This document shows, piece after piece, positions 1 to 63,705 of a stretch of 64,000 nt of DNA; within the stretch, counting starts at the first letter, position 1; the number at the start of each line of letters is the position of its first letter. A program made the position numbers and the translations under genes. This DNA is from the human T2T-CHM13v2.0 reference genome, Homo sapiens, in the NCBI RefSeq assembly GCF_009914755.1, contig NC_060946.1; one strand, given 5' to 3'. The notes beneath the pieces are model-generated. The model was not told the origin of the DNA. It was given only the letters and a program-made list of their open reading frames with translations, and did not search any database.

Positions 1-263
1 TAATTAAGATTCTTCAGGTATAAGAAAATATTTCAATAACTAAGTTTGTGCATAAACACATTAAGGTCAAATACCCATGACATTATTGTGTGTTTCTGTG
101 TACTAGAGACAAAAACTTCAAAAAAAATTTTAATGAATATACGTTAAATTAAAAAATGCTTTCATTAAACTGAGATAATCTTCCCTCAATGCATGAATAC
201 CTTCAGAATTCACATAGACCAAAGAATTGTATAAAGTATAATAGCCTTAAAAATCTTATTTGT

Positions 264-565
264 AGCTGGCACAATGACTCCCACCTGTAATCCCAGCACA
301 TTGGCAAGCCGAGGTGGGCAGATCACCTGAGGTCAGGAGTTCAAGAGCAGCCTGGCCAACCTGGTGAAACCCCATCTCTACTAAAAATAGAAAAATTAGC
401 AGGGTATGGTAGCACGTGCATGTAGTATCAGCTACTCGAGGGGCTGAGGCAGGAGAATTGCTTGAACCCGAGAGGCAGAGGTGGTAATGAGCCAAGACTG
501 AGCCACTGCACTCCAGCCTTGGTGACAGAGCAAGACTCTGTCTCAAAAACACAAATAAACAAACA
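264..565 (+). mobile_element. Alu (AluS-like)
   Basis: Dimeric Alu consensus (cacctgtaatcccagcac...gaggtcaggagttcaag...cactccagcct) with A-rich tail. Confidence 0.95.
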
Positions 566-2044
566 ACCTAATTTTTCCCATATAAGTCTATGTTCATACA
601 AGATCTGAAGAGTACACAACACCGTGAGACAGGACAGACATATATTTTAAAAGTTATATTCCTGGTTTCTGTAAAAATAAAATAGTTGAATTTAAGCTTT
701 CAAGACAAGTCAACGAAAAGAGAATGCAAAAGTGAAACTCGAAGGGTCATTTCCCCATCAAGGGCTCATGATCACTGGACATTCACAAACTATACTGTTC
801 AAAACATTAGATCTGAATTTTGATCCGAGTATCCCTTTAGTAGCAGTTTCATTCAAGGATGTCCAAGAGGTAAAATAAGACAATATCATTTGCTATTTTC
901 AGTTTTCTTTTCTGAGAACAGCCCAGCATTCTTCTTCAGAGAAATGAATTGTGCTAACTTCATAGGCTAAAGGCTCATGAGTCATAGTTCTAAGGGTATT
1001 AATAAAATATGGTGGTGTATGCTTGTATTCTGAACTTTTCAGGTTTAAACTCTCATATAGTAAACGCTAATAGATACAAACCAATTAAAGAAAAGCCCTC
1101 TTAATCTGACATTATTTTTCTTTTTATTTCTTCATTTATCAGCAACAGGAGAGTCTAACTAAATGTGGTAAAGTGGTATGAGGGAATACAATGAACAGTG
1201 TAAAATGAATTAAACCAGGGATAATCACACCAATGTGGGTACAAGTGGAAAATATAATACAAAACACACCAAAGAAAGTGGCAGAAAGGTATATAAAGTG
1301 TATAACCACTCACATACCATTTTAGGACACAAAAAATTCTGCATATTATTTCTGAGCATCACAATGTAATTAAAGATTTCAAAAGGGCATTGAAATGAAA
1401 AACAACCAACTTATGATGTTGGTAGCCTCTATGCAATCATGTTTTAAAAACTTTAACACCAAAAAGGCTCAAAATCACCATTTTAAAAGACTGTGTCTAC
1501 CAGTCATAAATGAATCATTACTTTCGTCATTTGTAATAGTCAAAGATGCCACAAGCGCACGCATACACACATCTATATATACACCTACACACACAGTCTT
1601 GCTCATTAGAACATCTGATAGGCTTCAGATCATCAGTGTAATAACACTAGCAGCAAGCCTCTGAAGTTAAAACAGAAACTGACACTTTAATAAGTAAAGC
1701 TTTCCTCTAGGTAAAGATCAGAACTCCAACTAGCACTTAACTCACTGGAAATATCTTAAGAGTCTCAAAATTCACTGCTTTGAATCCCTGACAAGTATAA
1801 AAATTTTATACTGAAAACTTCATGCTATTCAAAACATTTAAACAGAAACATCTGACTTAAAGCTTACATTTTTAAAATCTTTTTTATGCTTCTAAATTTG
1901 TTTTTATTCAAATATGGATACCAACAATAACATTTATGTCAATGCCTTCTGTTCAATATTGAACAAATAGAATTAGGAATAAGAATAATATGAGTACATC
2001 CAATCATTGAATGTACTTTATTTCCAGTATTCCATTAAATGTAC

Positions 2045-2117
2045 CTGCTCTCAATGTCTGTACATTCTTTCTTTGTACTGCTCCTTTCACAGCAGGATCT
2101 TCCACTTCAGTGCTAGG
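2045..2117 (-). pseudogene. ANKRD20A-like: ANKRD20A-family pseudogene exon (73 bp), PSTEVEDPAVKGAVQRKNVQTLRA
   Basis: Minus strand cattcag|CCTAGCACTGAAGTGG...GAGAGCAG|gtac with canonical AG/GT; the peptide matches ANKRD20A as I recall it. Confidence 0.88.
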
Positions 2118-2208
2118 CTGAATGGGTTTTAAAAGATAACGATTCATAAATCATATATATTTTATACAACATGGAGTTAGTGATTCAAAAATATACATAA
2201 TTAATTAC

Positions 2209-2237
2209 ATTCAAGGAAGGATGTTTTGCAGGAGGCC
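2209..2237 (-). pseudogene. ANKRD20A-like: ANKRD20A-family pseudogene exon (29 bp), GPPAKHPSL(N)
   Basis: ttgtag|GGCCTCCTGCAAAACATCCTTCCTTGAAT|gtaatt; the 29-bp + 73-bp exon pair is typical of the ANKRD26/20A/30/36 family. Confidence 0.85.
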
Positions 2238-4613
2238 CTACAAAGCAAAGGGGATATGTCATCAATTATATGTAAGTATGACAAGGCCAACCAAACATTC
2301 ATGCAGTGTTACTGTCGAGCTGAATTCTCAGGCCTGGCTATAAAAATAATTACTTAAGGTTTTGAGGGTTCTTCTTGGCTTCTTCTTTTCATTGCCTAGG
2401 ACAGCAACATGACAGAAACACAATGAGGAAAATAGGAATATAGGATTCCCAAAATGCACAGTTTATATTTCAGTAGTGAGATTATGTTTCAAATGCCTAT
2501 ACTTAAAATAGAAAAGCATTGATATAACCGTGAACATGTGGACTGATGAGGAGAAAAGGGACCATTAAACAGAGGGGCAAATCAAACCTGAGAGAATCAA
2601 TGTCAAAGCTGATGGTGAATGTACAGAGTATTTTAACTCCACACACCAGAGGCATTGCTGCCAGCACAGCACAAATAAATTCCCCTTGTCTTGTCACTGA
2701 GGAAATACGCAGTTGAGATGACAGTTCAGGTGAATGTGTGATTCACCTCTCATCAAAGAAAGGGTTCTACATTGATCAGCTAGGATACACACTTATGAAA
2801 TAACAGCTAATCAAACTACTCATTTTTCCCATGATCACATGGGCTACTGCAGCACCTACATTTCTCCTATCCCCTCATTTGGCCTTGAATTAGAGCTCCT
2901 TGATCCACTCATGCAAGGTGGTCCATAAAACACATCAAATAAACCATGTCGAATAAGCTTCTGATATGAAAATATTTATCAAAAAAGAAAACATTGAATG
3001 ACCACAGACTTGCTGGATATTAATACATATTTATATTTCAAAATCAGTGCAGTATTTATTGAAAATGATGATTTTGGTTTTCATGGAATGAATTTTATGA
3101 TTACTTCTAAAATTAACTGAGTTTGGTATATTATCTTACACTGTAAAGGACTTTTATAAAACAGCTATCATATCGAAGAACTGGCTGTCTCAAAAAAATT
3201 TCACCAAAGCATCTATATGCAACTTAATCATATCTTATTCACTCATGTCAGTGAAACTTCTCTCCCTGAGGCCTGACAGTTATCAAGTGAAATGAGCTGC
3301 TGTGGTTTACCCCAACTCTAGCACTCCCTCCTGTCTCCAGTACTCTCCACAGCAATAACCTCTTTTGTGAGACTGGGCATATGCTGAAGCAACTGGAAGT
3401 GAGTTGTCTCAAGTTAACTTGCTTTAACTCCCAATACCCCAGCAAATGTCTTTCTTTCCTCCTTTTGTGTCCTTTCACCATCCCTCTTCCTTTGAAAAAA
3501 TGATTATCAGAACTGTCATCCTGATGCTTCCCTTCCTAACTGCTTTTTATGGATGATTGTGACCACTTTTTTCATCTGTATTCAGCAGTAGTATACACCT
3601 GTAATCTCTCTTTTTTCATCTCATTTTCCTTCCCCTGTGGCTAGAATCATGCTCAGAAATAAAAGGAAATTAAAGCTTTCCCTGGATTCTGTTATCTTTT
3701 AAATTGCTCTCCAGTGGTTCTTTTTCCAGATTTCTCTAAAGGAAGGCTATTCCCTTGCTATTCAGAGCTGTGTCCAAGGACCGTGCACTTTCCAGAAGCT
3801 CCTCAACGTATTCATGACAATTTGAATGCCTTGTTCTACACTGGTGTGCTTCCATATTGGTTTGCCCTAATTGGCCTTTTTGGCCTAGCCTCAACTTCTT
3901 TCCTATTATGTCCCTGAATTTAATACTACGTTATAAGCCATAATGTTTCTAATGAACTTTTAATCAGGCAAAGCTTCTCTAATTAATTTCTTCCCAATAA
4001 ATCACCCAACACTATTCTTTTCAATTATGTTAATATGATACTATCCTATGAAGTTACAACATTTTCTATGAAAACAAATTACAGTCATACATGGCTGACC
4101 ATTTATGGTGATGTTCATCTATGGTAGATAAAACACAGGTCTGCATGGTAAAGTACCTCAATCCTTAATGCCTCCCCAGTAGCGAGAATGACAGCAAGAG
4201 AAGGAAAATGTTACTGTAATTATATGACACATTTTGGTACTGGAAGCTCACTTTATCTTCCTTCCTATTTCTAACACCCTGTTCTTCCTTCTTCTACAGA
4301 TCAATTTGACTTTACTACCCTCCATTACATACATCCACTTTTTTTTTATTTATTCCATGTACACTCTGCCCTCCTCATTCTTTCTTTCTCTTTTATTCAT
4401 TTCCTCTTCCCTCTCTCCTGACTTGCCTCAGGTCTTAGAGTATGTTAAAATGGAACTCATAACTCACCTCCTTTAGTGGTACTTCCAATAGAATCAACTG
4501 CTGACCCTTGGTTAGAGACACCACTTATCACCATTTCATTTCTCTTTTACTTATGATACAGTTAATAGGACATTTTCTTTAGCTATTAAACTCTATTAGT
4601 GCTCATATTTTAA

Positions 4614-4925
<312 letters not shown>

Positions 4926-4964
4926 CTCCATCAAATGACTTTTTAAATAAAATACGGTTCTCAC

Positions 4965-5049
4965 CTTTTCCTTTTCCATTGACTATTCTGTTTCCTTTTT
5001 CATGAGAAGGTCCACGTAAAGGCTCTGACACTTTCTCGGGGACACACTG
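4965..5049 (-). pseudogene. ANKRD20A-like: ANKRD20A-family pseudogene exon (85 bp), QCVPEKVSEPLRGPSHEKGNRIVNGKGK
   Basis: ccttag|CAGTGTGTCCCCGAGAAAG...GGAAAAG|gtgaga; peptide resembles ANKRD20A QCVPEKVSEPLPGSSHEKGNRIVNGQGE. Confidence 0.88.
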
Positions 5050-5119
5050 CTAAGGTAATATCAAGAATTAGGTTCCATTTAAAATTATAATGAGTTGCAT
5101 CAAGAGTTTCTTATCAATC

Positions 5120-5418
5120 TCTTTTTATGAAACTGGGTCTCACTCTGTCAACCCAGGGCTAGAATGCAGGGGCCTGATTATGGCTCACTGTGGTCTCAAA
5201 CTCCTGACCTCAAGCAATCTTCCCACCTCAACTTCCTGAATAGCTGGAACTACAGGTGCATACCATCATGTCATGCTAATGTTTTTATTGTTATCTTTGT
5301 AGAGACAAGGCCTCATTATACCTCCCAGGCTGGTCTCAAGCTCCTGGGCTCAAGCAAATCTTCCACTTCTGCCTCCCAAAATGTTGAGATAAGCAGTGTG
5401 CACCACCACACCCAGCCC
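5120..5418 (-). mobile_element. Alu (old, AluJ-like)
   Basis: Diverged reverse Alu (ctcaagctcctgggctcaagc, gcctcccaaaatgttgagat). Confidence 0.85.
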
Positions 5419-5433
5419 TAATCAATTTCTTTA

Positions 5434-5745
<312 letters not shown>

Positions 5746-6107
5746 AATTTAAAAGAGAGATACAAACAAAAAACAAGCCTAATTAGTCAATGAAATATGA
5801 GCTTAAGCCAAGAAAGAAAACGAAAAACATGAAGTACAATAAAGTACATGGGGAAATAGATCTATAACAGAGCCTTCGGTCTTTCATAACTCTGATAATA
5901 CTAATTAATATTTATGCTGCAATTAGTTTTTTGTAAGTACTTCTGTGATAGTGTTTCTTACTATAAGACATTCAATTAGCTAAATATGGTCATCTACCAT
6001 TACCTGAAAGAACATTATTATAACAGAGAGAGAAAACTGGAACTTTCCATCAACTTTCCACCCAGAAAAAGAATTGGTCACCAGAATTCTAAAGAGTAAT
6101 GTATGGC

Positions 6108-6880
6108 AGACACATGAAAAAATGCTCATCATCACTGGCCATCAGAGAAATGCAAATCGAAACCACTATGAGATATCATTTCACACCAGTTAGAATGGCA
6201 ATCATTAAAAAGTCAGGAAACAACAGGTGCTGGAGAGGATGTGGAGAAATAGGAACACTTTTACACTGTTGGTGGGACTGTAAACTAGTTCAACCATTGT
6301 GGAAGACAGTGTGGAGATTCCTCAAGGATCAAGAATTAGAAATACTGTTTGATCCAGCCATCCCATTACTGGATATATATGCAAAGGATTATAAATCATG
6401 CTGCTATAAAGACACATGCACATGTATGTTTATTGCAGCACTATTCATAATAGCAAAGACTTGGAACCAACCCATATGCCCATCAATGATAGACTGGATT
6501 AAGAAAATGTGGCACTTACACACCATGGAATACTATGCAGCATAAAAAATGATGAGTTCATGTCCTTTGTAGGGACATGGATGAAGCTGGAAACCATCAT
6601 TCTGAGCAAACTGTTCCAAGGACAGAAAACCAAACACCACATGTTCTCACTCATAGGTGGGAACTGAAAAATGAGAACACTTGGACACAGGATGGGGAAC
6701 ATCACACACCATGGCCTGTCATGGGGTGGGGGGAGAGGGGAGGAATAGCATTAAGAGATATACCTAGTATAAATGACGAGTTAATGGGTGCAGCACACCG
6801 ACATGGCACATGTATACATATTTAACAAACCTGCACGTTGTGCACATGTACCCTAGAACTTAAAGTATAATAATAATAAT
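6108..6880 (+). mobile_element. 5'-truncated L1PA (ORF2 C-terminus + 3'UTR) with 17-bp TSD
   Basis: ORF 6099-6545 is the L1 ORF2 C-terminus ([14 protein letters not shown]...[13 protein letters not shown]); ends ccctagaacttaaagtataataat; TSD aaagagtaatgtatggc at 6091-6107 and 6881-6897. Confidence 0.97.
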
Positions 6881-7248
6881 AAAGAGTAATGTATGGCTTG
6901 AAATGGTGTATTTAATGGAACATGAGTTGGGTCTAATAAAAAGCTTAAGAAATATTAATCTAAAATCTCAATGTTAAGATTCCAGTTGAATGATACTAGA
7001 AAATATATTGTAACCCTCTTTGCTACCGATGACCTATTTCTATTTTATTTCCTTTTTAATTATGGCATAAATTCTCAACATAACATGTCAAAACTTATAC
7101 ACCGTTAAATATTAAAAAATAATACAATGTAAGCAATATTTTAAATACAATATTTAATGATTAGATACATTAGGTTTATTATATTACTTATAACATTCCA
7201 TTATATAAAAATTCATTTGTTTATTTATTCAGATTAAACAACTATTAA

Positions 7249-55372: not shown

Positions 55373-57118
55373 CATATATATATGTATATATATATATACA
55401 TATATATATATATGTATATATATATATATGTATATATCAGCACCTCGGAGAAGCCGGGCCTGGGTCCCCACTGATGAAAGTGCCTTCCCATCAGCCCCTG
55501 CGCTAGCCCCGAGAACCTGGCGACCCTGATTGGAGACCCGGCAGCGCCTCGGGCCTGCTCGTGGTACCCCAAAGCAGGCAGAAGGCCAATGAGGGGAAGG
55601 TGAGGCACCTGGGGCGGAGAAAAAAAACCGCAGCTTTGAGAAGCGGGGCCTGGGTACCCACGGATGAAGGTACCTTCCCATCAGCGCCTGCGCTAGGCCC
55701 CGGTGACCCTGGCATACATGGTTCGAGTCCAGGGAGCGCCTTGGGCCGCTAGGGGTACCCCAAGTCGAACAGAAAGCCCATGATGGGAAGTTGACGTTTG
55801 AGGGAGGAGAGGTGAGGAACCTGTGGCAGAAAAAAAAAAGAAAACAAGCCGCGCCTAGGAGAAGCTGGGCCTGGGTCCCCCAAGAGTGAAAATGCCTTCC
55901 CATCAGTCCCTGCGCTGGGCCCTGTGGACGCTGGAGACCCCGGTTCGAGCCCCGGGTGCGCCTCGGGCCTGCTAGGGGTAACACAAGGCGGGCAGAAATC
56001 CCAGGAGGGGCAGTTGAGGTTTGAGGAAGGAGAGGTGAGGCACCTGTGGCAGAAAAAAAAAACTGCACGACGAAGAAGCGGAGCCTGGGTCCCCAACGGA
56101 CGAAAGTGTCTTCCCATCAGCACTTGCGCTGGGCCCAAGGGACCCTGGCATTCCTGGTTCGAGACCAGGGTGTGCTTCAGGCCGCTAGGGGTACCCAAAA
56201 GCAAGCAGAAGGCCCATGAGGGGAAGGTGACGCACGTGGGGCAGAGAAAAAAACAACTGTGCCTCGGATAAGCGGGGCCTGGGTCCCCCACAGAAGAAAC
56301 TGTCTTCCCATCAGCGCTTGCACTGTGCCCCGGGGACCCTGGTATCCCTGGCTCGAGCCCAGCGTGCGCCTCGGCCTGCTAGGGGTACCCCAAGACAGAC
56401 AGAAGGCCCATGAGGGAAAGGTGAGACACCTGGGGCAGAGAATAAAATAAAAAACTGTGCCGCCCAGAAGTGGGGACTGGGTCCCACATGGACGAACGTC
56501 CCTACCCATAAGCCCTGCACTGGGCCCCGGAGACCCTAGCATCCCTGCCTCAAAACAACGGTGTGCCTCGGGTCGGCTAGGGGTACCTCAAGGCGGGCAG
56601 AAAGCCCATGACGGGAAAGTGAGGCAACTGGGGAAAAAAAAAAAAAAACGCCACAGAGAAGCAGAGCCTGGGTCCCCGAGGAAGAACGTGTCTTCCCATC
56701 AGCCACTGAGCTTGGCCCAGTGGAATCTGGCTTCCATGGTTCGAGACCAGGGTGTGCCCCGGGTCGCTAGGTGTACCCCAAAGCGTGCAGAAGGCACAAG
56801 AGGGGAAGGTGAGGCACATGGGGCAGAGAAAAAAAAAACCTGCCACGGAGAAGCGGGGACTGGGTCTTCCACACGGACGAAAGTGTCTTTCCATCAGGCC
56901 TTGCGCTGGGCCTCAGGGACACTGGAGTCCCTGGTTCGAGCCCACAGTGCACCTCGGACCGCTAGGTGTACCCCAAGGCAGACAGAAGACCCAAGAGGGG
57001 AAGGTGAGATTTGAGGAAGGAGAGGTGAGGGATCTATGGCAGGAAAAAAAAAAAACCGCGCCACGGAGAAGCAGGGCATGGGTCCCCCACAGACGAAAGT
57101 GCCTTCCCATCAGGCCCT
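53768..57118. repeat. Gamma-satellite (GSATII-like) array, about 16 GC-rich units of 190-225 bp
   Basis: Unit agaaggcccatgaggggaaggtgag(gtttgagggaggagaggtgag)gcacctg.ggcag(A)n...gaaagtgccttcccatcagcccctgcgctgggccc...ggggtacccc. The tandem structure is certain; the family name is from recall. Confidence 0.78.
55310..55437. repeat. (TA)n microsatellite with TG/CA interruptions inside a gamma-satellite unit
   Basis: About 64 dinucleotides directly following the unit's poly-A tract. Confidence 0.98.
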
Positions 57119-57494
57119 GATGGTTTGAGACAGAATGAGGAGTGACTAATGTCTACAGGGTTTTTCTCTGGTCGGGGGTGATAAGACGTTCTACAATGGA
57201 TTGCGAATTAAAATTGAATGTGCACAACCACAGGTATACTAAAAGCCACTCAATTCATGACTTTTAATGGGGAAATCTTATGTGGCGCACTCTAATGGAG
57301 ACCACGGCAGACATAGTGAGAGAGAAAAAGGTGAGTAAATATCTGAAACGGAGGCAGAAACAGAGAGAATGAAAAGCCCTGTGAATGGAAGGGAGAGCGA
57401 AAAGGGAAAATGGTCCTATTTACAAATGACAGATGTGAAACCGGGGTTCACATCAACAGTGTCACTGCCAGGAAGGAGGGTCATGCTAGCCATG

Positions 57495-60236
57495 TCACCG
57501 GTAGTGTGTCCCGCAGGGACGCCGACCTGCTGGAGCGTCGTGCCAGCATGGGCTCTGGCAGCCACGTGGGCCAGCAGGAGGGTCCTGCTGCACAGCTGTG
57601 GGGTGAGGATAGACTGGGTGGTGATATCGGCCATTACAGGGGCCTCTTCTGCTGGCAAGAGTGTGACAGTAGCAAGTAGATGGACAGGCCTGCGTGTGAG
57701 GACGGAATGCAGGAGGGGCTCTTGTGCGGCTGGTTGTGGGGCCCTCACCAGAAATGTGGAGAAATGGCCATGTAACTGCGTCATGTGGGCTAGTAGATTG
57801 GCCAGGGCTTCGAACTGAAGGACAATAACGGGGAGTAGCTGTCAGGCCCTGGGAGTGTCTGAGTGTAAGTGGAGATGGGTTTGGGGTCACTGAGGGATGC
57901 GTGGGAGCCATCCCTGTATAGGTACAGGTCATAGGGAGATAGTCTCGTGAGGCCTGTGAGTGTCTAGGGTTGTCCTGGGTGCCTGGGGCTGACTGTGGCA
58001 GAAATCCGGGGAAGGCTGGAGAGAAGCTGGGAGACCCAGGAGAGTCCCTGAAGGCAGGGGGTGAAGAGGTGAAAGAAATGGGGGAGGGTTGCAGTAAGGT
58101 CCGTGAGTTTGTAGGTGATTCCTGGGTGCGGGAAGCTGACTCCAGGTGAAATCTGGAGATGGTTGGAGAGTAGCTGAGAGAGACAGAAGAGTCCCTGAGG
58201 GCTGGGGGTGAGAACATGAGGGAGACTGGGGAGTAAGTCAGTGAAATTCGTGAGTTCGGTGGTGTATCGTGGGTGCCTGGAACTGACTCCAGCTGGAATC
58301 TAGAGAAGTTTTGACAGTAGCTGAAAGAGACACAAGAGTCCCTGTGGGCTGAGGGCAAAGACCTGAGAGAGACCAGGGAGGACCTCAGTGAAGTCTGTGA
58401 GTCTGTAGGTGATTCCGGAGTGTGGGAGGCTGACTCCCGCTGAAATCTGGGCGTGGTGGGAGAGGAGCTGGGACAGACAGGAGAGTCCCAGGGGGCTGGG
58501 GGTGAAGACATGAGAGAGACTGGGGAGTAACTCAGTGAAACTGCTGAGTTTGTAGGTGATACCTGGGTGCCTGGAACTGACTCCCGCTGAAATCTGGGCA
58601 TGGTAGGAGAGTAGCTGGGACACACAGGAGAGTCCCTGAGGGCTGGGGGTGAAGACATGAGAGAGACCGCGGAGTAACTCAGTGAAACTGGTGAGTTTGG
58701 TGGTGACTCCGGGGTGCCTGGAACTGACTGCAGCTGAAATGTGGGCGTGGTTGGAGAGTAGCTGGGACCCCCAGGAGAGTCCCTGAGGGCTGGTGAAGAC
58801 ATGAGAGAGACTGGAGAGTAATTGAGTGAAATTGGTGAGTTTGGTGGTGATTCCTGGGTGCCTGGAACGGACTCCCTCTGAAGTGTGGGCGTGGTTGGAG
58901 AGTAGCTGGGACACACAGGAGAGTCCCTGAGGGTTGGAGATAAAGACGTGCTAGAGACTGAGGAGTAACTGAGTGAAATTGGTGAGTTTGGTGGTGATTC
59001 CGGGGTGCCTGGAACTGACTCCAGCTGAAATGTGGGCGTGGTTGGAGAGTAGCTGGGACAGACGGGAGGGTCCCTGAGGGATGGTGAAGACATGAGAGAG
59101 ACTGGGGAGTAACGCAGTGAAATTGGTGAGTTTGGTGGTGATTTCTGGGTGCCTGCAACGGACTCCCGCTGAAGTGTGGGCGTGTTTGGAGAGTAGCTGG
59201 GACAGACAGGCGACTCCCTGAGGGTTGGAGATAAAGACGTGCTAGAGACTGGGGAGTAATTCAGTGAAAGTGGTGGGCTTGGTGGTGATCCCTGGGTTCC
59301 TGGAACTGACCCGCGCTGAAATGTGGGCGTGGTTGGAGAGTAGCTGGGACAGACTGGAGGGTCCGTAAGGGCTGGGGGTGAAGACATGAGAGAGACTGGC
59401 GAGGATCTCACTGAGGTCTGTGAGTTTGTAGGTGTTTCTGGGGTGTGGGGTAGAGACTCCTGCTGAAATCTGGGCGTAGTTGGAGAATAGCTGGGACAGA
59501 CAGGAGACTCATGGGTGGCTGGGGGTGAGCTGCTGGATGATGGCAGTAAGAACATATGGTATATTATTGATGAATGAGGTGACTGTGAAGAATCTCCAGA
59601 GGAGGACACGGGAGAACACAATGACATGAGTGACTGTCCTGCTTGGTTAGGAAAGGGAAACGTAAAGCTGTGGAATTCTGTTGATGATGGATGTGAGAGT
59701 GGTGAAGCCCTGCGGGGTGATGTAGAGTACTTCCACATCTCTGGTGAGGAGCTGCCCCTTGGGTCTGAGTTTCTGGGAGGGGAGAGGGAGAAGCTGGGTG
59801 AGGCAGGCATGAATCTTGAGGAGTCAGGGCTGGGGGACCGCTCATATTCTCCCGAGACCTGTGAGTCTCTGGGGGACTCCTGGGTGCATGGGACTGACTC
59901 CCGCAGGAACCTGGGGATGGCTGGAGAGTAACTGGGAGCCACAAGAGAGTCCCTGAGGCCTGGGGGTGAAGAGATGAAAGACACAGGGGTGGAGCACCGT
60001 GAGGCTCGTGAGTTTGTAAGTGATTCCTGGGTGTGGGGGACTGACTCCAGCTGAAATCTGGGGTTGTTTGGAGAGTAGCTGGGAGACACAGGAGACCCCC
60101 CGAGAGCTGGGGGTGAGCTGCTGGGTGATGGCAGTAAGAGCATGTGGTATATTATTGATGAACGTGGGGGATCTGAGGAATCCTCAGAGGAGGACACGGG
60201 AGAGCCCAATATCTTCATTGATTGCCCATCAATCAA
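57495..60236 (-). CDS. Putative 913-codon Ser/Pro/Thr-rich ORF spanning the ACRO1 array, with Pol II CTD-like YSPTTP motifs; 5'-truncated (track start is TTG, first ATG at 60218)
   Basis: Stop-free for 2.7 kb; 48-49-aa repeat PALRDSPVCPSYSPTTPTFQLESVPGTQESPPNSPISLSYSPVSLMSS; the upstream part of the same frame exists at 62389-62634 on +. Translation is unproven. Confidence 0.4.
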   Translation of the reverse strand: MIDGQSMKILGSPVSSSEDSSDPPRSSIIYHMLLLPSPSSSPPALGGSPVSPSYSPNNPRFQLESVPHTQESLTNSRASRCSTPVSFISSPPGLRDSLVAPSYSPAIPRFLRESVPCTQESPRDSQVSGEYERSPSPDSSRFMPASPSFSLSPPRNSDPRGSSSPEMWKYSTSPRRASPLSHPSSTEFHSFTFPFPNQAGQSLMSLCSPVSSSGDSSQSPHSSIIYHMFLLPSSSSSPPATHESPVCPSYSPTTPRFQQESLPHTPETPTNSQTSVRSSPVSLMSSPPALTDPPVCPSYSPTTPTFQRGSVPGTQGSPPSPPLSLNYSPVSSTSLSPTLRESPVCPSYSPNTPTLQRESVAGTQKSPPNSPISLRYSPVSLMSSPSLRDPPVCPSYSPTTPTFQLESVPGTPESPPNSPISLSYSSVSSTSLSPTLRDSPVCPSYSPTTPTLQRESVPGTQESPPNSPISLNYSPVSLMSSPALRDSPGGPSYSPTTPTFQLQSVPGTPESPPNSPVSLSYSAVSLMSSPPALRDSPVCPSYSPTMPRFQRESVPGTQVSPTNSAVSLSYSPVSLMSSPPAPWDSPVCPSSSPTTPRFQRESASHTPESPTDSQTSLRSSLVSLRSLPSAHRDSCVSFSYCQNFSRFQLESVPGTHDTPPNSRISLTYSPVSLMFSPPALRDSSVSLSYSPTISRFHLESASRTQESPTNSRTLLQPSPISFTSSPPAFRDSPGSPSFSPAFPGFLPQSAPGTQDNPRHSQASRDYLPMTCTYTGMAPTHPSVTPNPSPLTLRHSQGLTATPRYCPSVRSPGQSTSPHDAVTWPFLHISGEGPTTSRTRAPPAFRPHTQACPSTCYCHTLASRRGPCNGRYHHPVYPHPTAVQQDPPAGPRGCQSPCWHDAPAGRRPCGTHYR
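57930..60231 (-). repeat. ACRO1-type 147-bp satellite array (about 15-16 monomers)
   Basis: gagagtagctgggac recurs at 144/147-bp spacing (about 58607, 58754, 58898, 59045, 59189, 59336); the neighbouring L1 and MER21 pieces fit the ACRO composite unit as I recall it. Confidence 0.82.
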
Positions 60237-60504
60237 TACTTCTTTAACCTGACGGAAGAACTGATCTAAAGGCTTTAGTACAGTGCATGATTATGTGAGA
60301 TGTTTTGAGACAGAGTAGTACATTTGTGAATGAAATTTTATGGCTTATTTTCGCTTAGTAGGAACCATTGTGTGTGGAAAAGTGAGGAAATTGCTTTCTG
60401 CTGTAGAGTCTGGCATTCATTGTAGATTTAAGCTTATTTTCCTGTGAGCAAATCTTATTCAATAAAATACTACTCTTTATACTGAAAAACAAAAACACTG
60501 GTGA

Positions 60505-60830
60505 TGTGAGGTCATTATCCTCAGCAAACTAATCCAGGGAAAGAAAACCAAACACCACATTCTCACTTATAATGGGAGCTGAAAAATGAGATCACATGGA
60601 CACAGGAAGGGGAACAACACACACTGGGGCCTTTCGGGAGGCAGAGCGTTAAGAAAAACAGCTACTGCATGCTGGGCTTAATACCTAGGTGATGGGTTGA
60701 CAGGTGCAGCAAACCACCATGGCACACGTTTACCTTAGTAACAAATCTGCACATCCTGCACATATACCCCGAACTTAGAAACGAAACGAAACAAAAGAAA
60801 ACGAAAAAGCAGTAACAAAACGCTAAAGGC
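60505..60830 (+). mobile_element. L1PA 3'UTR fragment with (GAAAC)n tail
   Basis: cattatcctcagcaaactaa...gggcttaatacctaggtgatgggttgacaggtgcagcaaaccaccatggcacacg. Confidence 0.88.
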
Positions 60831-60974
60831 AAAATAAAGTTTCAAACTCAGAAAGTGACAGACCAATGTTTGGTTCAAATCATGGGTTCTCAACCCAGGT
60901 GCCATAAGGTCAGAATAAAAAATTTGATTATGTATTGTAAATAAGACATGCAGCAAATGACCAGAGAGATTATT

Positions 60975-61465
60975 CTCAACATATGTGTGTCTTCTAATTC
61001 AATGGTGACGCTATCTACCGGGACATAGCATTAGATTCCAAAGGGCCGAGTCCCACCAGACAGGCCTCCCACACTAATAACAATGGGAAGCCCCACGTTG
61101 TTTTACCTGTGCTTCTCAGCAACTGGCTATAAATCAGGTTGCCACCACTCCCAGATTTAGTTGCATTCATTTGCTGGAAGAGCTCACAGCACGCAGGTAA
61201 ACACTTACATTTGCCGTTGTATTTTAGCGGACATTGCAAAAAGTTCAGAAATAAATGTGGGGCCCGGCATGTGGGGAGGGGCGCACTACCTTCCAGGAAG
61301 TGTTATCCAGAAGCCCTCTGAACCCAGTCCTTTTGGGTTTTTATGGAGATCTCCTTCTATAGTCATGATGGGTTAAACCATAGGCTATTGGTGATCAGCT
61401 CCACCCGAGGCTCTCAACCCTCCCTGGAAATTGGGGTTGAGGCTTTGCCATTCTCAGTCTGACTC
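60975..61465 (-). mobile_element. MER21-like LTR
   Basis: ctaattcaatggtgacgctatctacc...tacctgtgcttctcagcaactggctataaatcagg...ccagtccttttgggtttttatggag. Confidence 0.68.
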
Positions 61466-61989
61466 AAAGAATTTACCCAAACGGAATTTTAAAACAGATG
61501 AGCATAACTGGAATCTTAATTACATGATTGGATTATCTGGAGCCACACCTTGATATTCCTAACCCGAGCACCCTCATCCAACGAATGCTCCACCCAACTG
61601 GCTCCCAAGTCTCTACGTGGTTCCAGAGCAAAAGAATGTTTATACAACGCATATCTCCACCTTTTCTTCAAAGTCTTTTCGTTTACACGGAAAGACTTCT
61701 TAAACTGCCATGCATCAGAGTCAGGGGGAGGTCTTGTTACAACACAGATCTGTGCATCTCCGGGGTTTGATTGTGGCAAGGATGCTGCTGGTGTCAAAAC
61801 CACAACGTGGGAACCACAGAACCACTAGTTGGTTTTCAGTGTTTCAGTGCATACAATTCCTAATATATCTGGCCAAGAAAACTTGTAAGTTCTTAGATTG
61901 TCCCAAAGGTGGCGCATGAAATCAAAGCAGGAGAACAGTTTCCTACCAGGTGTAGCCTGGGAAAGTTGGGGGTGACTGATGGAAAGGAG

Positions 61990-62388
61990 GAGTGAAGCTC
62001 CGCCCTTTCCGCTGCTAGGCTGCGCCCGAGGCTATTTAAACCCACCCTGGCTGGCCTGTACTCAGATCTTCGCGGAGCGGATCAGCGGCCGGAGCGTTTG
62101 GCGGACTCTGCGTGGACTTGGAGCTCACAGTGTCTTGCGACTTGGAAGCGGATTCAGAGGACAGGACAGAACACGTGGGCAAGTGAATCTCTGTCTGTCT
62201 GTCTGTCTGTCTCATTGGTTGGTTGATTTCCATTTTCTTAAGGGGCACATACCTCACACCGCACACACACAAACACACACCGCACACACAAACACACACA
62301 CACACACACACGCGCGCACACACACACTCCTTCCTTCTTCGAGTTAGAAAATTGGTACGGGCCCCTGGGAGCTGCAGGTTTCCTAATC
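61990..62388 (+). promoter_or_regulatory. Putative Pol II promoter, non-coding exon 1 and short intron of the ACRO1 unit
   Basis: GC box ctccgccc (about 61998), TATA-like ctatttaaa (62032-62040), CpG-rich ~62060-62178 ending in a GC-type donor GG|gcaagt, intron with (TCTG)n and (CA)n, acceptor ctgcag|G at 62377, ATG in aatcATGt at 62389. Confidence 0.55.
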
Positions 62389-63170
62389 ATGTCTGCACCT
62401 AAGAACAGTAGGGTCTTGTCTGGCTCTTCTTATGAACGGTCCCCCAGCCCAGACTCCCCAAGGTCCATGCGAGCCTCACCCAGCTTCTTCCTCTCCCCTC
62501 TCAGAATCTCTTGCTTAAGGGGAAGCTCCTCACCAGGGATCCGGAGCTACCATTCACCATCCCCTAGGGCTTCACCACACTCACCTCTGTCATCACCAGA
62601 ATCCCACAAGCTCCCATTTCCCTGTCCTCACCGTGATGGGCAATCAATGAAGACATTGGGCTCTCCCGTGTCCTCCTCTGAGGATTCCTCAGAGTCCCCA
62701 CGTTCATCAATAATATACCACATGCTCTTACTGCCATCACCCAGCAGCTCACCCCCAGCTCTCGGGGGGTCTCCTTTGTCTCCCAGCTACTCTCCAAACA
62801 ACCCCAGATTTCAGCTGGAGTCAGCCCCCCACACCCAGGAATCACCTACAAACTCATGAGCCTCACGGTGCTCCACCCCTGTGTCTTTCATCTCTTCACC
62901 CCCAGGCCTCAGGGACTCTCCTGTGGCTCCCAGTTACTCTCCAGCCATCCCCAGGTTCCTGTGGGAGTCAGCCCCATGCACCCAGGAGTCCCCCAGAGAC
63001 TCACAGGTCTCGGGAGAATATGAGTGGTCCCCCAGCCCTGACTCCTCAAGATTCATGCCTGCCTCACCCAGCTTCTCCCTCTCCCCTCCCAGAAACTCAG
63101 ACCCAAGGGGCAGCTCCTCACCAGAGATGTGGAAGTATTCTACATCACCACGCATGGCTTCACCACTCTC
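62389..63170 (+). pseudogene. 5' part of the ACRO1 ORF (MSAPKNSRVL...), with a CGA>TGA stop at 62857-62859 and truncation at 63170
   Basis: 62634-63170 is the near-identical reverse complement of 59695-60231, in the same frame as the 913-codon ORF; TNS* here versus TNSR there. Confidence 0.75.
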
Positions 63171-63705
63171 CTTACCATTAGAACACTCAGTAATCATATG
63201 AATTGTGCAGTTGTTGTTTTGCTTAACTCTTTTTGTTTGTTTATGCTTGGGGTTTTATTGTTGTTGTTTCACTTTTCTCCCATCTCTTCCTGACTTGGTC
63301 AAATCCAAAGGAATGTTCCAAATTATGGGGAGCAAGTCCTCTGAATTGGCTAAAACTCCTATGGCTGCAAAAAAACAAACAAATAAACAACAAAAAAAAG
63401 CATTCCAGTTAGCAGAAATTATTTTTTAAACCTTTTTTTTTACGTAACTGGTCTCATCTACATAAAAAGGTCATCCTTTTGCTAGCCAAGGCCAAACTGA
63501 AGGAGTAGTGGTGGTGACCCAATGTGAAGATTCTGCCCTGTTCACTACAGAAACCTGAGTTTGGTTCCTAAGTCTAGTTCTTTCTGTTTGATATTTGTGT
63601 TACTTTTAAAACGTCAGCAGTTTGTCCCAGCTATGATGTGGTAGTAAAAGATTCAAAAGGGGTTTCTTTACAGGTTCTATGATTAAAAGCTTAATTTAAA
63701 GCAAA

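What the first reader, a model, noticed from the sequence alone, without database searches (positions are those of the whole stretch)
57495..60236. A 'non-coding' ACRO1 satellite array is one uninterrupted 2.7-kb ORF with RNA Pol II CTD-like heptads
Seen: 913 codons without a stop across visibly diverged monomers, and the monomer lengths I measured are multiples of 3 (144/147). YSPTTP occurs five times and YSP about 15 times, with two Tyr motifs per 48-49-aa unit, compared with the CTD heptad YSPTSPS. The other minus-strand frames break into short ORFs. Established (from recall): ACRO1 is annotated as a satellite, and its CTD-like translation and Pol II-binding RNA have been remarked on before. 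Inference: together with the promoter, intron and ATG at 62.0-62.4 kb, ACRO1 looks like the coding VNTR of a multicopy primate gene. Its disordered, SP/TP-rich product could be a CDK substrate or a CTD mimic or decoy.
Basis: partly seen in the sequence, partly recalled or inferred. Interest (0 to 1): 0.82.

Follow-up and report, generated by a model that had tools for sequence, protein, structure and literature searches.

The report
Long open frame in ACRO satellite
The 2.8-kb open reading frame is real, but here it is a beheaded copy of a roughly 1,100-codon frame carried by a repeat found in well over a hundred copies on human acrocentric chromosome arms; that frame has stayed open since before the human-marmoset split while its amino acids drift almost freely, so it may be an unrecognised early-embryo gene family.

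Summary
Observation confirmed.

The window copy is not the gene-like form. It is a rearranged copy of the about 6.3-6.6-kb ACRO/ACRE macrosatellite unit. It has lost the canonical first 93 codons and the ATG to an inversion at 60231/60236.

Canonical units carry a 1,003-1,101-codon frame with an invariant ATG and stop. Of 150 scored copies, 112 are open for at least 1,002 codons.

Against coding:
- Among human copies substitutions look neutral (dN/dS about 0.9).
- All 7 small indels shift the frame.
- No translation evidence was found.

For coding:
- Older branches carry only 3n indels.
- Frame-breaking variants stay rare.
- A marmoset predicted protein keeps the same start, architecture and tail.

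The CTD-like translation is already published (Boots 2020). The array-spanning, family-wide, cross-species ORF was not found in the papers I searched.

Verdict: probably (about 0.5) a coding or recently coding, DUX4-linked macrosatellite ORF. A composition and 3n-periodicity by-product remains a serious rival.

The parts
57495..60290 (-). Stop-to-stop open frame of 931 codons (stop codon at 57495-57497); a 5'-truncated copy of the canonical ACRO/ACRE unit ORF
60216..60218 (-). First ATG of the window ORF (907 aa downstream). It corresponds to an internal Met near codon 97 of the canonical ORF, not to the canonical start.
57973..59528 (-). Regular ACRO1 array: 147/144-bp monomers, each seven heptads (49 or 48 codons), with 291- and 438-bp higher-order periods
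59529..60231 (-). Degenerate monomers and 'spacer' codons; part of an old 588-bp (196-codon) internal duplication of the ORF
57498..57977 (-). Non-repetitive C-terminal 160 codons, rich in Cys and His. Present in all 150 scored copies of the genome (296 first-look candidates) and 74% identical to the marmoset protein.
57119..57494 (-). 3' flank still homologous to the canonical unit; the ACRE-derived segment ends near 57119
60231..60236 (.). Inversion breakpoint: collinear homology to the canonical unit (position 2479 onward) ends and inverted homology (unit position 91) begins
60236..63170 (+). Inverted partial second copy of the unit: canonical upstream spacer (about 60236-62345) plus the first 271 codons of the ORF
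62242..62859 (+). 205-codon open frame holding the canonical ORF start (ATG at 62389-62391), ended by a stop
61525..61535 (-). DUX4-type motif TAATCCAATCA. It is in the canonical position, about 0.85 kb upstream of the plus-strand ATG, and is present in 35 of 35 canonical copies examined.
62262..62327 (.). (CA)n microsatellite that lies just upstream of the ATG in canonical units

Best explanation
The window ORF is an inherited, 5'-truncated and probably dead copy of the single long ORF carried by each unit of the ACRO (ACRE, '6kbHsap') macrosatellite. That is a 6.3-6.6-kb composite repeat arrayed on the acrocentric short arms and near the chromosome 3 centromere.

The canonical ORF has 1,003-1,101 codons. 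It consists of an ATG-led N-terminal part built on an old 588-bp duplication, 12-15 ACRO1 monomers of seven CTD-like heptads each, and a unique 150-160-codon tail.

I read the family ORF as having been kept open by selection along the trunk lineage since before the platyrrhine-catarrhine split. The amino-acid sequence is almost free to change, and individual copies decay.

The most likely mechanism is as follows. In cleavage-stage embryos or DUX4-expressing cells a DUX4-type site and a CpG-richer stretch upstream drive sense transcription. The RNA is translated into a Ser/Pro-rich, disordered protein whose repeated aromatic-Ser-Pro heptads make it a bulk substrate or mimic for the machinery that reads the Pol II CTD.

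Shown here: the ORF, its architecture, the rearrangement in this window, frame retention, and neutral-like substitutions. From the literature: expression timing and DUX4 induction. Inferred: the promoter, translation, and any CTD-related function.
For: 1. Family-wide ORF. Of 39 fetched paralogues, 23 keep the full 1,003-1,004- or 1,101-codon frame. Of 150 scored copies, 112 are open for at least 1,002 codons. No variant hits the ATG (35 copies with the canonical 5' end) or the terminal stop (40 copies).

2. Non-array parts, about 483 codons, hold 0 stops in frame 0 against 9 and 14 in the other sense frames.

3. Old branches avoid frameshifts.
- 15 monomers: 153 distinct substitutions, 1 indel of 3 bp.
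- 588-bp duplication: 136 differences, no net indel.
- Diverged chr21 copy, 5' 1,470 nt: 107 differences, 1 indel of 3 bp.
- Young or dead branches: 10 small indels, none 3n.
- Fisher P = 0.0035. At the young rate 10.9 frameshifts are expected on the old branches, so P(0) = 1.8e-5.

4. Frame-breaking variants stay rare: 8 of 11 are singletons against 101 of 275 syn+missense (Fisher 0.024), none has 5 or more carriers against 91 of 275 (0.019), and Mann-Whitney gives 0.005.

5. The ORF has fewer ordinary small indels than its own spacer: 7 in 3.3 kb against 11 in about 1.8 kb. Substitution density is similar, 85 against 94 per kb.

6. Marmoset 832-aa predicted protein: same start and tail. The N block has 262 of 369 identical residues with 1 gap column, and the C block 118 of 159 with none. 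My rough estimate is about 250 substitutions in these blocks without a stop or frameshift.

7. Weak coding signature in the old duplication: differences by codon position 33/45/58 (P = 0.03), and Nei-Gojobori dN/dS 0.54 against 1.74 and 0.88 in the control frames.

8. A DUX4-type motif lies about 0.82-0.86 kb upstream in 35 of 35 copies, and a CpG-richer stretch lies 200-400 bp upstream.

9. Literature passages: a 4-cell expression peak, DUX4 induction, and hypomethylation in spermatogonial stem cells and sperm.
Against: 1. No amino-acid constraint in recent evolution. Among 280 distinct substitutions in 40 copies, missense is 193 against 192.6 expected and synonymous 82 against 75.5. The diverged chr21 copy gives 73 against 71.8 and 32 against 29.9. 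The monomers give 102 against 103.5 and 50 against 44.4. Missense variants are if anything commoner among shared variants.

2. The nonsense deficit (4 against 10.9 expected) is matched in the control frames (4 against 7.9 and 1 against 7.7). It therefore reflects my mutation model and not selection.

3. All 7 small indels among paralogues shift the frame, and every dispersed solo copy I looked at is broken.

4. The strand is stop-poor in all frames, and monomers are 3n by construction (7 x 21 bp), so the regular array's openness is cheap.

6. Boots et al. found no stable ACRO1 transcripts in HeLa. They showed that 1.1-1.4 kb of ACRO1 in the sense orientation nearly abolishes reporter RNA, which argues against easy production of a full-length mRNA.

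7. No gene is annotated here in RefSeq (hub table), no Pfam family matches, and no peptide strings were found in print.

8. The marmoset evidence is one predicted model whose DNA and exon structure I could not see. The baboon and colobus models break after about 250-275 residues.

9. Singleton 1-bp indels could include assembly errors, which would mimic point 4 of the evidence for.
Confidence: 0.5

Rival explanations
1. Non-coding satellite whose ORF is a by-product. A 21-bp (3n) subrepeat grew into 147-bp monomers on a C-rich, purine-poor strand that rarely makes stops. A recently amplified master copy happened to be open, and about 200 young copies inherited that. Any function lies in DNA or RNA, for example nascent-RNA Pol II-binding aptamers that silence transcription in cis, or heterochromatin or nucleolar organisation.
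For: The monomer consensus has 0, 1 and 0 stops in its three sense frames. In the regular array the other frames carry only about 3-5 independent stop events. dN/dS is about 1 at the paralogue, monomer and diverged-copy levels. All 7 recent small indels shift the frame. The window copy's openness needs no selection: it differs at 47 sites with 1.9 nonsense expected. In Boots 2020, SELEX reads are 1029 sense against 1 antisense, with sense-specific loss of reporter RNA. There is a look-elsewhere cost from genome-wide scanning.
Against: It does not explain 0 stops against 9 and 14 in the roughly 483 non-array codons. It does not explain the absence of frameshifts on about 396 old substitution events when 10.9 are expected. 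It does not explain the collinear, stop-free marmoset N- and C-terminal blocks totalling 528 codons with one 3n gap. It does not explain the low frequency of frame-breaking variants, or the lower indel density than in the spacer.
Confidence: 0.28
2. Relic of a once-coding gene. An anthropoid gene with a coding Ser/Pro-rich VNTR exon was captured in the ACRO composite and amplified. Its frame was under selection in the past. The human arrays are now a decaying pseudogene family that still looks open only because the amplification is young.
For: There is a coding-like signature only in old comparisons: dN/dS 0.54-0.71 in the ancient duplication and 3n-only old indels. Recent variation is fully neutral-looking. 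Of 39 fetched paralogues 16 are truncated or broken. There is no human annotation and no Pfam match (hub table).
Against: The human trunk stayed open up to the recent amplification, and the marmoset frame is open too. So selection must have lasted until at most a few per cent of divergence ago. Frame-breaking variants are still kept at low frequency within arrays. The ATG, the stop and the upstream DUX4-type motif are invariant in the copies examined.
Confidence: 0.17

Closest known systems
ACRO1 satellite within the ACRE / ACRO composite (6kbHsap) repeat (Boots et al. 2020, PMC7714431; ape acrocentric preprint 10.64898/2025.12.22.696095)
   Same: 147-bp monomers in 1.3-2.4-kb arrays inside an approximately 6-kb higher-order unit on acrocentric arms and chromosome 3. 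The consensus translates into a CTD-like sequence (23 of 49 identical in their alignment, 22 of 49 in mine).
   Different: In what I read of those papers the monomer consensus is treated as a translation curiosity or as an RNA aptamer ('open reading' occurs 0 times in Boots 2020). Here the frame is shown to run through the whole array plus unique N- and C-terminal parts, with a fixed ATG and stop across the family and in marmoset. The window copy is a rearranged fragment, not a canonical unit.
D4Z4 macrosatellite encoding DUX4 (recalled knowledge; not tested here)
   Same: A kb-scale unit in tandem arrays, one ORF per unit, long regarded as non-coding repeat, expressed in cleavage-stage embryos. 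Most copies are silent or dispensable while the ORF is conserved across species.
   Different: DUX4 has recognisable homeodomains and clear amino-acid constraint. The ACRO ORF has no Pfam domain and dN/dS near 1. Its translation is unproven. ACRO appears to be a DUX4 target and not the activator.
C-terminal domain of RNA polymerase II subunit RPB1 (YSPTSPS heptads)
   Same: Heptad periodicity with Ser-Pro opening 5 of 7 heptads and an aromatic residue before it. All 13 PDB sequence hits are RPB1 CTDs. The in-register identity of 22 of 49 is reached by 0 of 20,000 shuffles.
   Different: No RPB1 body and no Pfam CTD-repeat match. phmmer E-values are weak and bias-dominated (5.7e-5 for a fission-yeast CTD, 0.05-0.65 for human RPB1). 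Heptads 3, 4 and 7 of each monomer are not CTD-like. Descent from POLR2A is not shown.
Automatic 'DNA-directed RNA polymerase II subunit RPB1(-like)' gene models in marmoset, baboon and red colobus (database names)
   Same: They are translations of the same element starting at the same Met. The marmoset model (832 aa) spans the N-terminal part, the array and the unique tail.
   Different: They are unreviewed predictions named after a compositional best hit. The two Old World monkey models stop after about 250-275 homologous residues. None is linked to ACRO1 in the papers I searched.

Membership tests
ACRO1 satellite / ACRO (ACRE) composite macrosatellite | Tandem array of about 147-bp monomers | tested here: met
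   TRF finds period 147 at 57973-59528 with 10.6 copies. Eleven monomers are 147 bp and three are 144 bp.
ACRO1 satellite / ACRO (ACRE) composite macrosatellite | Array embedded in an approximately 6-kb higher-order unit that is tandemly repeated on acrocentric short arms | tested here: met
   Copies lie 6.28-6.6 kb apart on contigs 13, 14, 15, 21 and 22 and on contig 3. Two adjacent chr15 units are 99.9% identical over 3.8 kb. The window copy itself is a rearranged solo fragment.
ACRO1 satellite / ACRO (ACRE) composite macrosatellite | Match to the curated ACRO1 repeat model (Dfam/Repbase) | not testable with these tools
No repeat library is on hand.
RNA polymerase II CTD heptad repeats | Tandem heptads matching YSPTSPS | tested here: inconclusive
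   22 of 49 residues are identical in one register, with 0 of 20,000 shuffles reaching that, and Ser-Pro spacing favours multiples of 7. But only 4-5 of the 7 heptads per monomer resemble the consensus.
RNA polymerase II CTD heptad repeats | Recognised by the curated family model, or significant sequence similarity to human RPB1 | tested here: not met
   Pfam gives 0 families for P0001, P0101 and P0003. phmmer against human RPB1 chains gives E 0.05-0.65.
RNA polymerase II CTD heptad repeats | Attached to the RPB1 catalytic body | tested here: not met
   The ORF has no other domain. Its N- and C-terminal parts are unique to this element.
Functional protein-coding gene | Long ORF with a start and stop conserved among copies | tested here: met
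Functional protein-coding gene | Reading frame retained across species | tested here: inconclusive
   One marmoset model is collinear over 528 codons with one 3n gap. The two Old World monkey models break early. No DNA from other primates was available.
Functional protein-coding gene | Purifying selection on amino acids (dN/dS below 1) | tested here: not met
   About 0.9 among paralogues and monomers and about 1 in the diverged chr21 copy. There is only a weak signal (0.54-0.71) in the old duplication.
Functional protein-coding gene | Sense transcript and translation product | not testable with these tools
   Only second-hand literature on ACRO1 RNA. No strand, Ribo-seq or peptide data could be examined. 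Peptide-string search gave 0 papers.
Coding macrosatellite (D4Z4/DUX4 type) | One conserved ORF per kb-scale tandem unit | tested here: met
   There is one 1,003-1,101-codon frame per 6.3-6.6-kb unit.
Coding macrosatellite (D4Z4/DUX4 type) | Demonstrated protein product with a recognisable domain | tested here: not met
   No Pfam domain. No product is known from the searches.

The most novel reading that the evidence does not exclude
The ACRO macrosatellite is a gene family of well over a hundred copies. Its unit encodes a DUX4-induced, cleavage-stage, disordered protein made of CTD-like heptads. Selection keeps the frame, the start, the tail and the heptad pattern, but not the residues. The protein acts as a CTD mimic at human genome activation, for example as a sink or scaffold for CTD kinases, phosphatases or Pol II condensates. 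That would make ACRO a second D4Z4-like case of a 'satellite' that is really a gene array.
Probability: 0.3. Interest if true: 0.9.

Novelty: new member of a known kind. Interest (0 to 1): 0.62.

Why it matters
ACRO is described as the repeat class most specific to ape acrocentric short arms (passage of 10.64898/2025.12.22.696095), and its RNA appears at the 4-cell stage and after DUX4 expression. If each unit carries a translated frame, a large block of supposedly non-coding satellite would be a primate-specific gene array. It would be active at human genome activation and possibly in FSHD muscle, and its product would resemble the Pol II tail.

The result also makes the question directly testable. 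The canonical ATG, stop, unique N- and C-terminal peptides and upstream motif are now defined in T2T coordinates.

If the frame is instead a by-product, it is a useful warning. 3n-periodic, stop-poor satellites can produce kilobase ORFs that gene predictors name after RPB1 and that contaminate protein databases.

Tried and rejected
The region is an inverted partial unit whose ORF start faces the other way.
- **Nonsense deficit as evidence of selection.** Rejected. The control frames show the same deficit.
- **Descent from POLR2A CTD mRNA (suggested by Boots 2020).** Not supported by sequence. Human RPB1 matches at E 0.05-0.65, worse than fungal CTDs.
- **Known domain in the unique N- or C-terminal parts.** Pfam found none.
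- **ACRO138 of the rDNA distal junction (PMC3847771).** It is a different repeat, and the ORF remark there concerns other transcripts.
- **Hendrickson 2017.** Could not be read, so DUX4 induction of ACRO1 is cited second-hand.
- **Deeper human copies (chr4, chr1, chr13, chr14 solos).** Seen only through open-frame lengths, plus the chr1 and chr21 loci. More could not be fetched.
- **Not attempted.** Structure prediction and complex prediction were not run. A Ser/Pro-rich repeat is expected to be disordered and no binding claim is made.
Full report
**1. The observation**

The minus strand of the window is open from 60290 down to the stop at 57495-57497, a run of 931 codons.
- The first ATG is at 60216-60218, leaving 907 residues.
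- Within the same span the other minus-strand frames reach at most 216 aa and the plus-strand frames at most 159 aa.
- TRF reports a 147-bp array at 57973-59528 with 10.6 copies, 79% matches and 1% indels, plus 291- and 438-bp higher periods.
- YSPTTP occurs 5 times and YSP 15 times. The product is 22% Ser and 18% Pro.
- Frame-blind Markov chains of order 1, 2, 3 and 5 trained on the ORF strand gave 0 of 2000 sequences each with an open frame of 931 codons. Medians were 212-322 and the maximum was 910.

**2. What this copy is**

A 601-base probe from the array found 210 matches in the window's own assembly, from 249 first-look candidates of which 40 were scored. The full-length matches at 98-100% identity were spaced about 6.3-6.6 kb apart on contigs 13, 14, 15, 21, 22 and 3. 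A 51-base probe from the unique tail matched 192 places at up to 3 mismatches, and its reversed control matched 0.

I fetched 39 paralogues of 6 kb each.
- In 23 of the 39 the longest frame has 1,003-1,004 or 1,101 codons. It runs from a shared start (Met-Ser-Ala-Pro-Lys-Asn...) to a shared end.
- The other 16 are shorter, at 658-1,058 codons.
- In a wider census with the C-terminal 160 residues as query, 150 copies were scored out of 296 candidates. Of these, 112 lie in open frames of at least 1,002 codons, 12 in frames of 900-1,001 and 26 in shorter ones.

Mapping the window onto two adjacent chr15 units shows three things.
- Window 60231-57119 is collinear with unit positions 2479-5882.
- Window 60236-63170 equals unit positions 91-3015 in inverted orientation.
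- The canonical ORF occupies unit positions 2201-5506.

So the window copy has lost the first 93 codons, the canonical ATG and its upstream region. What lies upstream of it is an inverted partial second copy. The canonical start sits on the plus strand at 62389-62391 and heads a 205-codon fragment that ends in a stop. The same arrangement, at 99-100% identity, is on contigs 21 and 14.

The window copy differs from the family consensus at only 47 sites, with 1.9 nonsense changes expected. Its openness is simply inherited.

**3. Anatomy of the canonical ORF**

- A short leader comes after an in-frame stop, then the ATG.
- An N-terminal part follows, built on an old 588-bp (196-codon) duplication. 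Each copy holds about 98 'spacer' codons and two monomers.
- Then come 12-15 ACRO1 monomers of 49 or 48 codons.
- A unique tail of 150-160 codons, rich in Cys and His, ends the frame.

Each monomer is seven heptads. Ser-Pro opens five of them, and an aromatic residue precedes three.

The monomer consensus is identical to the Pol II heptad consensus at 22 of 49 positions in one register. None of 20,000 composition-preserving shuffles reached that (mean 12.4, maximum 21). A phmmer search of PDB sequences returned 13 hits, all RPB1 CTDs. The E-values were weak and bias-dominated: 5.7e-5 for a fission-yeast chain and 0.05-0.65 for human RPB1. Pfam finds nothing in the window, canonical or marmoset proteins.

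So the CTD likeness is a real pattern, as Boots et al. 2020 already published (23 of 49; section 7 and passages read). It is not membership of the CTD family, and descent from POLR2A is not shown.

**4. Is the frame more than an accident?**

*Against.*
- The sense strand is stop-poor in every frame. The family consensus has 0, 14 and 19 internal stops in its sense frames and 102, 50 and 54 in the antisense frames. Composition is C 40% and G 17%.
- The monomer consensus has 0, 1 and 0 stops in its three frames. An open regular array is therefore cheap.
- Among 40 copies (34 distinct sequences) I counted 280 distinct substitution events. I compared them with expectations that respect base change and CpG context.
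  - Frame 0: missense 193 against 192.6, synonymous 82 against 75.5, nonsense 4 against 10.9.
  - Control frames: nonsense 4 against 7.9 and 1 against 7.7. The nonsense deficit is therefore a model artefact.
- Monomers give the same picture: 153 events, missense 102 against 103.5, synonymous 50 against 44.4.
- So does a copy on contig 21 that is 7-14% diverged.
- All 7 small indels among the paralogues (six of 1 bp and one of 13 bp) shift the frame. The only 3n change is a 291-bp gain or loss of two monomers.
- By the usual dN/dS criterion this is neutral DNA.

*For.*
- The roughly 483 codons outside the regular array have 0 stops in frame 0 against 9 and 14 in the other sense frames.
- Old branches carry only frame-preserving indels.
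  - One 3-bp deletion among 15 monomers.
  - No net indel between the two copies of the 588-bp duplication, despite 136 differences.
  - One 3-bp indel in 1,470 nt of the contig-21 copy with 107 differences.
- Young or dead branches carry 10 indels, none of them 3n.
  - Fisher's test on 3 of 3 against 0 of 10 gives P = 0.0035.
  - At the young rate, 10.9 frameshifts would be expected on the 396 old substitution events, so P(0) = 1.8e-5.
  - This second figure is conditioned on my having noticed an open frame. It measures how unlikely such a frame is under neutrality. It is not an independent test.
- Three tests are less exposed to that ascertainment.
  - Frame-breaking variants stay rare within the arrays. 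Eight of 11 are singletons against 101 of 275 other variants (P = 0.024). None has 5 or more carriers against 91 of 275 (P = 0.019). Mann-Whitney gives P = 0.005. Assembly errors among singleton 1-bp indels could contribute to this.
  - The ORF has 7 small indels in 3.3 kb. Its own upstream spacer has 11 ordinary ones in about 1.8 kb, leaving out the alignment edge and the CA microsatellite. Several of the spacer indels are shared by many copies. Substitution density is similar, at 85 against 94 per kb. The spacer is AT-richer, so this is only suggestive.
  - The old duplication shows a weak coding signature. Differences by codon position are 33, 45 and 58 (P = 0.03). Nei-Gojobori dN/dS is 0.54 against 1.74 and 0.88 in the control frames. 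Type-aware synonymous changes are 49.5 against 38.7 expected.

**5. Other species**

The protein database returned six proteins of near length and 93 shorter ones.
- Most come from short unnamed contigs and look like human sequence.
- One is exactly a diverged human copy on contig 21.
- Two are annotated as Plasmodium ovale wallikeri proteins and are evidently contamination or chimeras.
- Three are named primate models: marmoset (832 aa, named RPB1), baboon (282 aa) and red colobus (291 aa, both 'RPB1-like').

All three start at the same Met. The marmoset protein aligns with the human one in two blocks.
- N-terminal block: 369 residues, 262 identical, one gap column.
- C-terminal block: 159 residues, 118 identical, no gap.
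- In between it has fewer monomers and one stretch that reads like frame 1 before returning to frame 0.

From 148 amino-acid differences in 528 codons, and a missense share of 0.69, I estimate about 250 nucleotide substitutions in these blocks. At the rates seen among human paralogues that predicts roughly 4-10 nonsense changes and 7 frameshifts. None is present. This is my inference. I could see neither the marmoset DNA nor the model's exons.

The two Old World monkey models break after about 250-275 homologous residues. A search with the C-terminal part found no further long proteins. The amino-acid identity of 71-74% is about what neutral drift would give, so again only the frame, and not the sequence, looks constrained.

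**6. Context and expression**

- Every one of 35 canonical copies has a DUX4-type motif about 0.82-0.86 kb upstream of the ORF. No variant touches the ATG (these 35 copies) or the terminal stop (all 40 aligned copies).
- A single such motif is not significant in itself: one is expected by chance per 64 kb.
- The 200 bp lying 200-400 bp upstream are the most CpG-rich part of the unit (GC 0.61, observed/expected CpG 0.81).
- A (CA)n tract lies just before the ATG.

From passages I read:
- ACRO1 RNA peaks at the 4-cell stage (PMC6545021).
- It rises after DUX4 expression (Hendrickson 2017, cited in PMC11467316 and 10.64898/2025.12.22.696056). The original paper was not held.
- ACRO1 is hypomethylated in spermatogonial stem cells and sperm (PMC5832720).
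- ACRO is a 6-kb composite of ACRO1, L1PA10, MER21B and L1MB8, almost exclusive to ape acrocentric arms (10.64898/2025.12.22.696095). See also the T2T repeat preprint.

Against easy expression:
- Boots et al. detected no stable ACRO1 transcripts in HeLa.
- They found that 1.1-1.4 kb of ACRO1 in the sense orientation, the CA-rich ORF strand, nearly abolishes reporter RNA. The reverse complement does not.

**7. Reading**

The simplest account of all this is a multicopy element whose single long frame has been under selection for continuity, start, stop and heptad pattern along the lineage that seeded today's arrays. Individual copies, including the one in this window, are free to decay, and the residues drift. 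That is what one expects of a redundant, disordered, repeat-built protein. It is also close to what a lucky stop-poor 3n satellite looks like.

My weights are:
- about 0.5 that the family ORF is, or was until the recent amplification, translated
- about 0.28 that it is a by-product
- about 0.17 that it is a relic now decaying

Translation, the promoter and any CTD-related activity are inferences.

**8. Novelty**

The CTD-like translation of the ACRO1 consensus is in print, and so are the Pol II-binding RNA, the 6-kb unit, the embryonic expression and the DUX4 link.

I ran five searches:
- 'ACRO1': 59 papers, 30 listed
- '6kbHsap': 3 papers
- 'ACRO_COMP': 2 papers
- 'ACRO1' with 'open reading frame': 10 papers, 8 listed
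- four peptide strings: 0 papers

Of the 8 papers listed by the 'open reading frame' search, I read ACRO1 passages in four (PMC6581058, PMC3847771, 10.64898/2025.12.22.696056 and 10.64898/2025.12.22.696095), but the ORF mention itself only in PMC3847771. In what I read, no paper describes an array-spanning ORF with a fixed start and stop across the family and in a New World monkey. I did not read all the listed papers or any supplements.

If coding, this is a new member of the class of gene-bearing macrosatellites exemplified by D4Z4/DUX4.

Noticed in passing
window 55638-57008: A second, unrelated tandem array with 194- and 214-bp periods (about 5 and 2.7 copies, 75-76% matches, GC about 0.6) lies just beyond the 3' end of the ACRE fragment. 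It is not part of the canonical unit.
   Followed up: no
window 63173-63364 (hub gene table) against 63170: The annotated last exon of the minus-strand lncRNA LOC124908441 ends 3 bp from the outer edge of the inverted ACRE fragment. The lncRNA's 3' end therefore abuts the repeat junction.
   Followed up: no
proteins P0006 and P0014: Two public 'Plasmodium ovale wallikeri' proteins are ACRO1 translations. One is 540 aa and named hypothetical or PIR superfamily, and it is fused to an AT-rich parasite-like tail. The other is named RPB1 partial. Both look like human contamination or chimeric assembly in that genome record.
   Followed up: partly
G000 contig 14 about 6554-7033, contig 22 about 168534-169013, contig 21 about 2362631-2363110: Some array units carry longer open frames (1,485, 1,248 and 1,149 codons). 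Common classes differ by about 49 codons (1,003, 1,052, 1,101). This means monomer-number variation that always preserves the frame.
   Followed up: partly
proteins P0007, P0016, P0028, P0035, P0074, P0087, P0097 (one 43.7-kb contig) and P0038, P0059, P0064, P0066, P0094 (one 74.9-kb contig): Two unnamed public contigs carry many ACRO1-derived ORFs. In the three I fetched (P0007, P0016, P0038) the frame switches every few dozen residues. That looks like an indel-rich (error-prone) assembly of this repeat, not real divergence.
   Followed up: no
window 57498-57700 (minus strand); P0101 residues about 1035-1100: The ORF tail is rich in Cys and His and is partly conserved in marmoset. It has no Pfam match. 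I did not test whether it could bind metal or derives from one of the transposon fragments of the unit.
   Followed up: no
L048 = G000 contig 21:5613097-5617917: A solo copy on contig 21 is 7% diverged in its 5' 1.5 kb and 14% in its 3' 0.6 kb. It is open for 674 codons and then broken by three 1-bp deletions. The uneven divergence suggests a mosaic or gene-converted history.
   Followed up: partly
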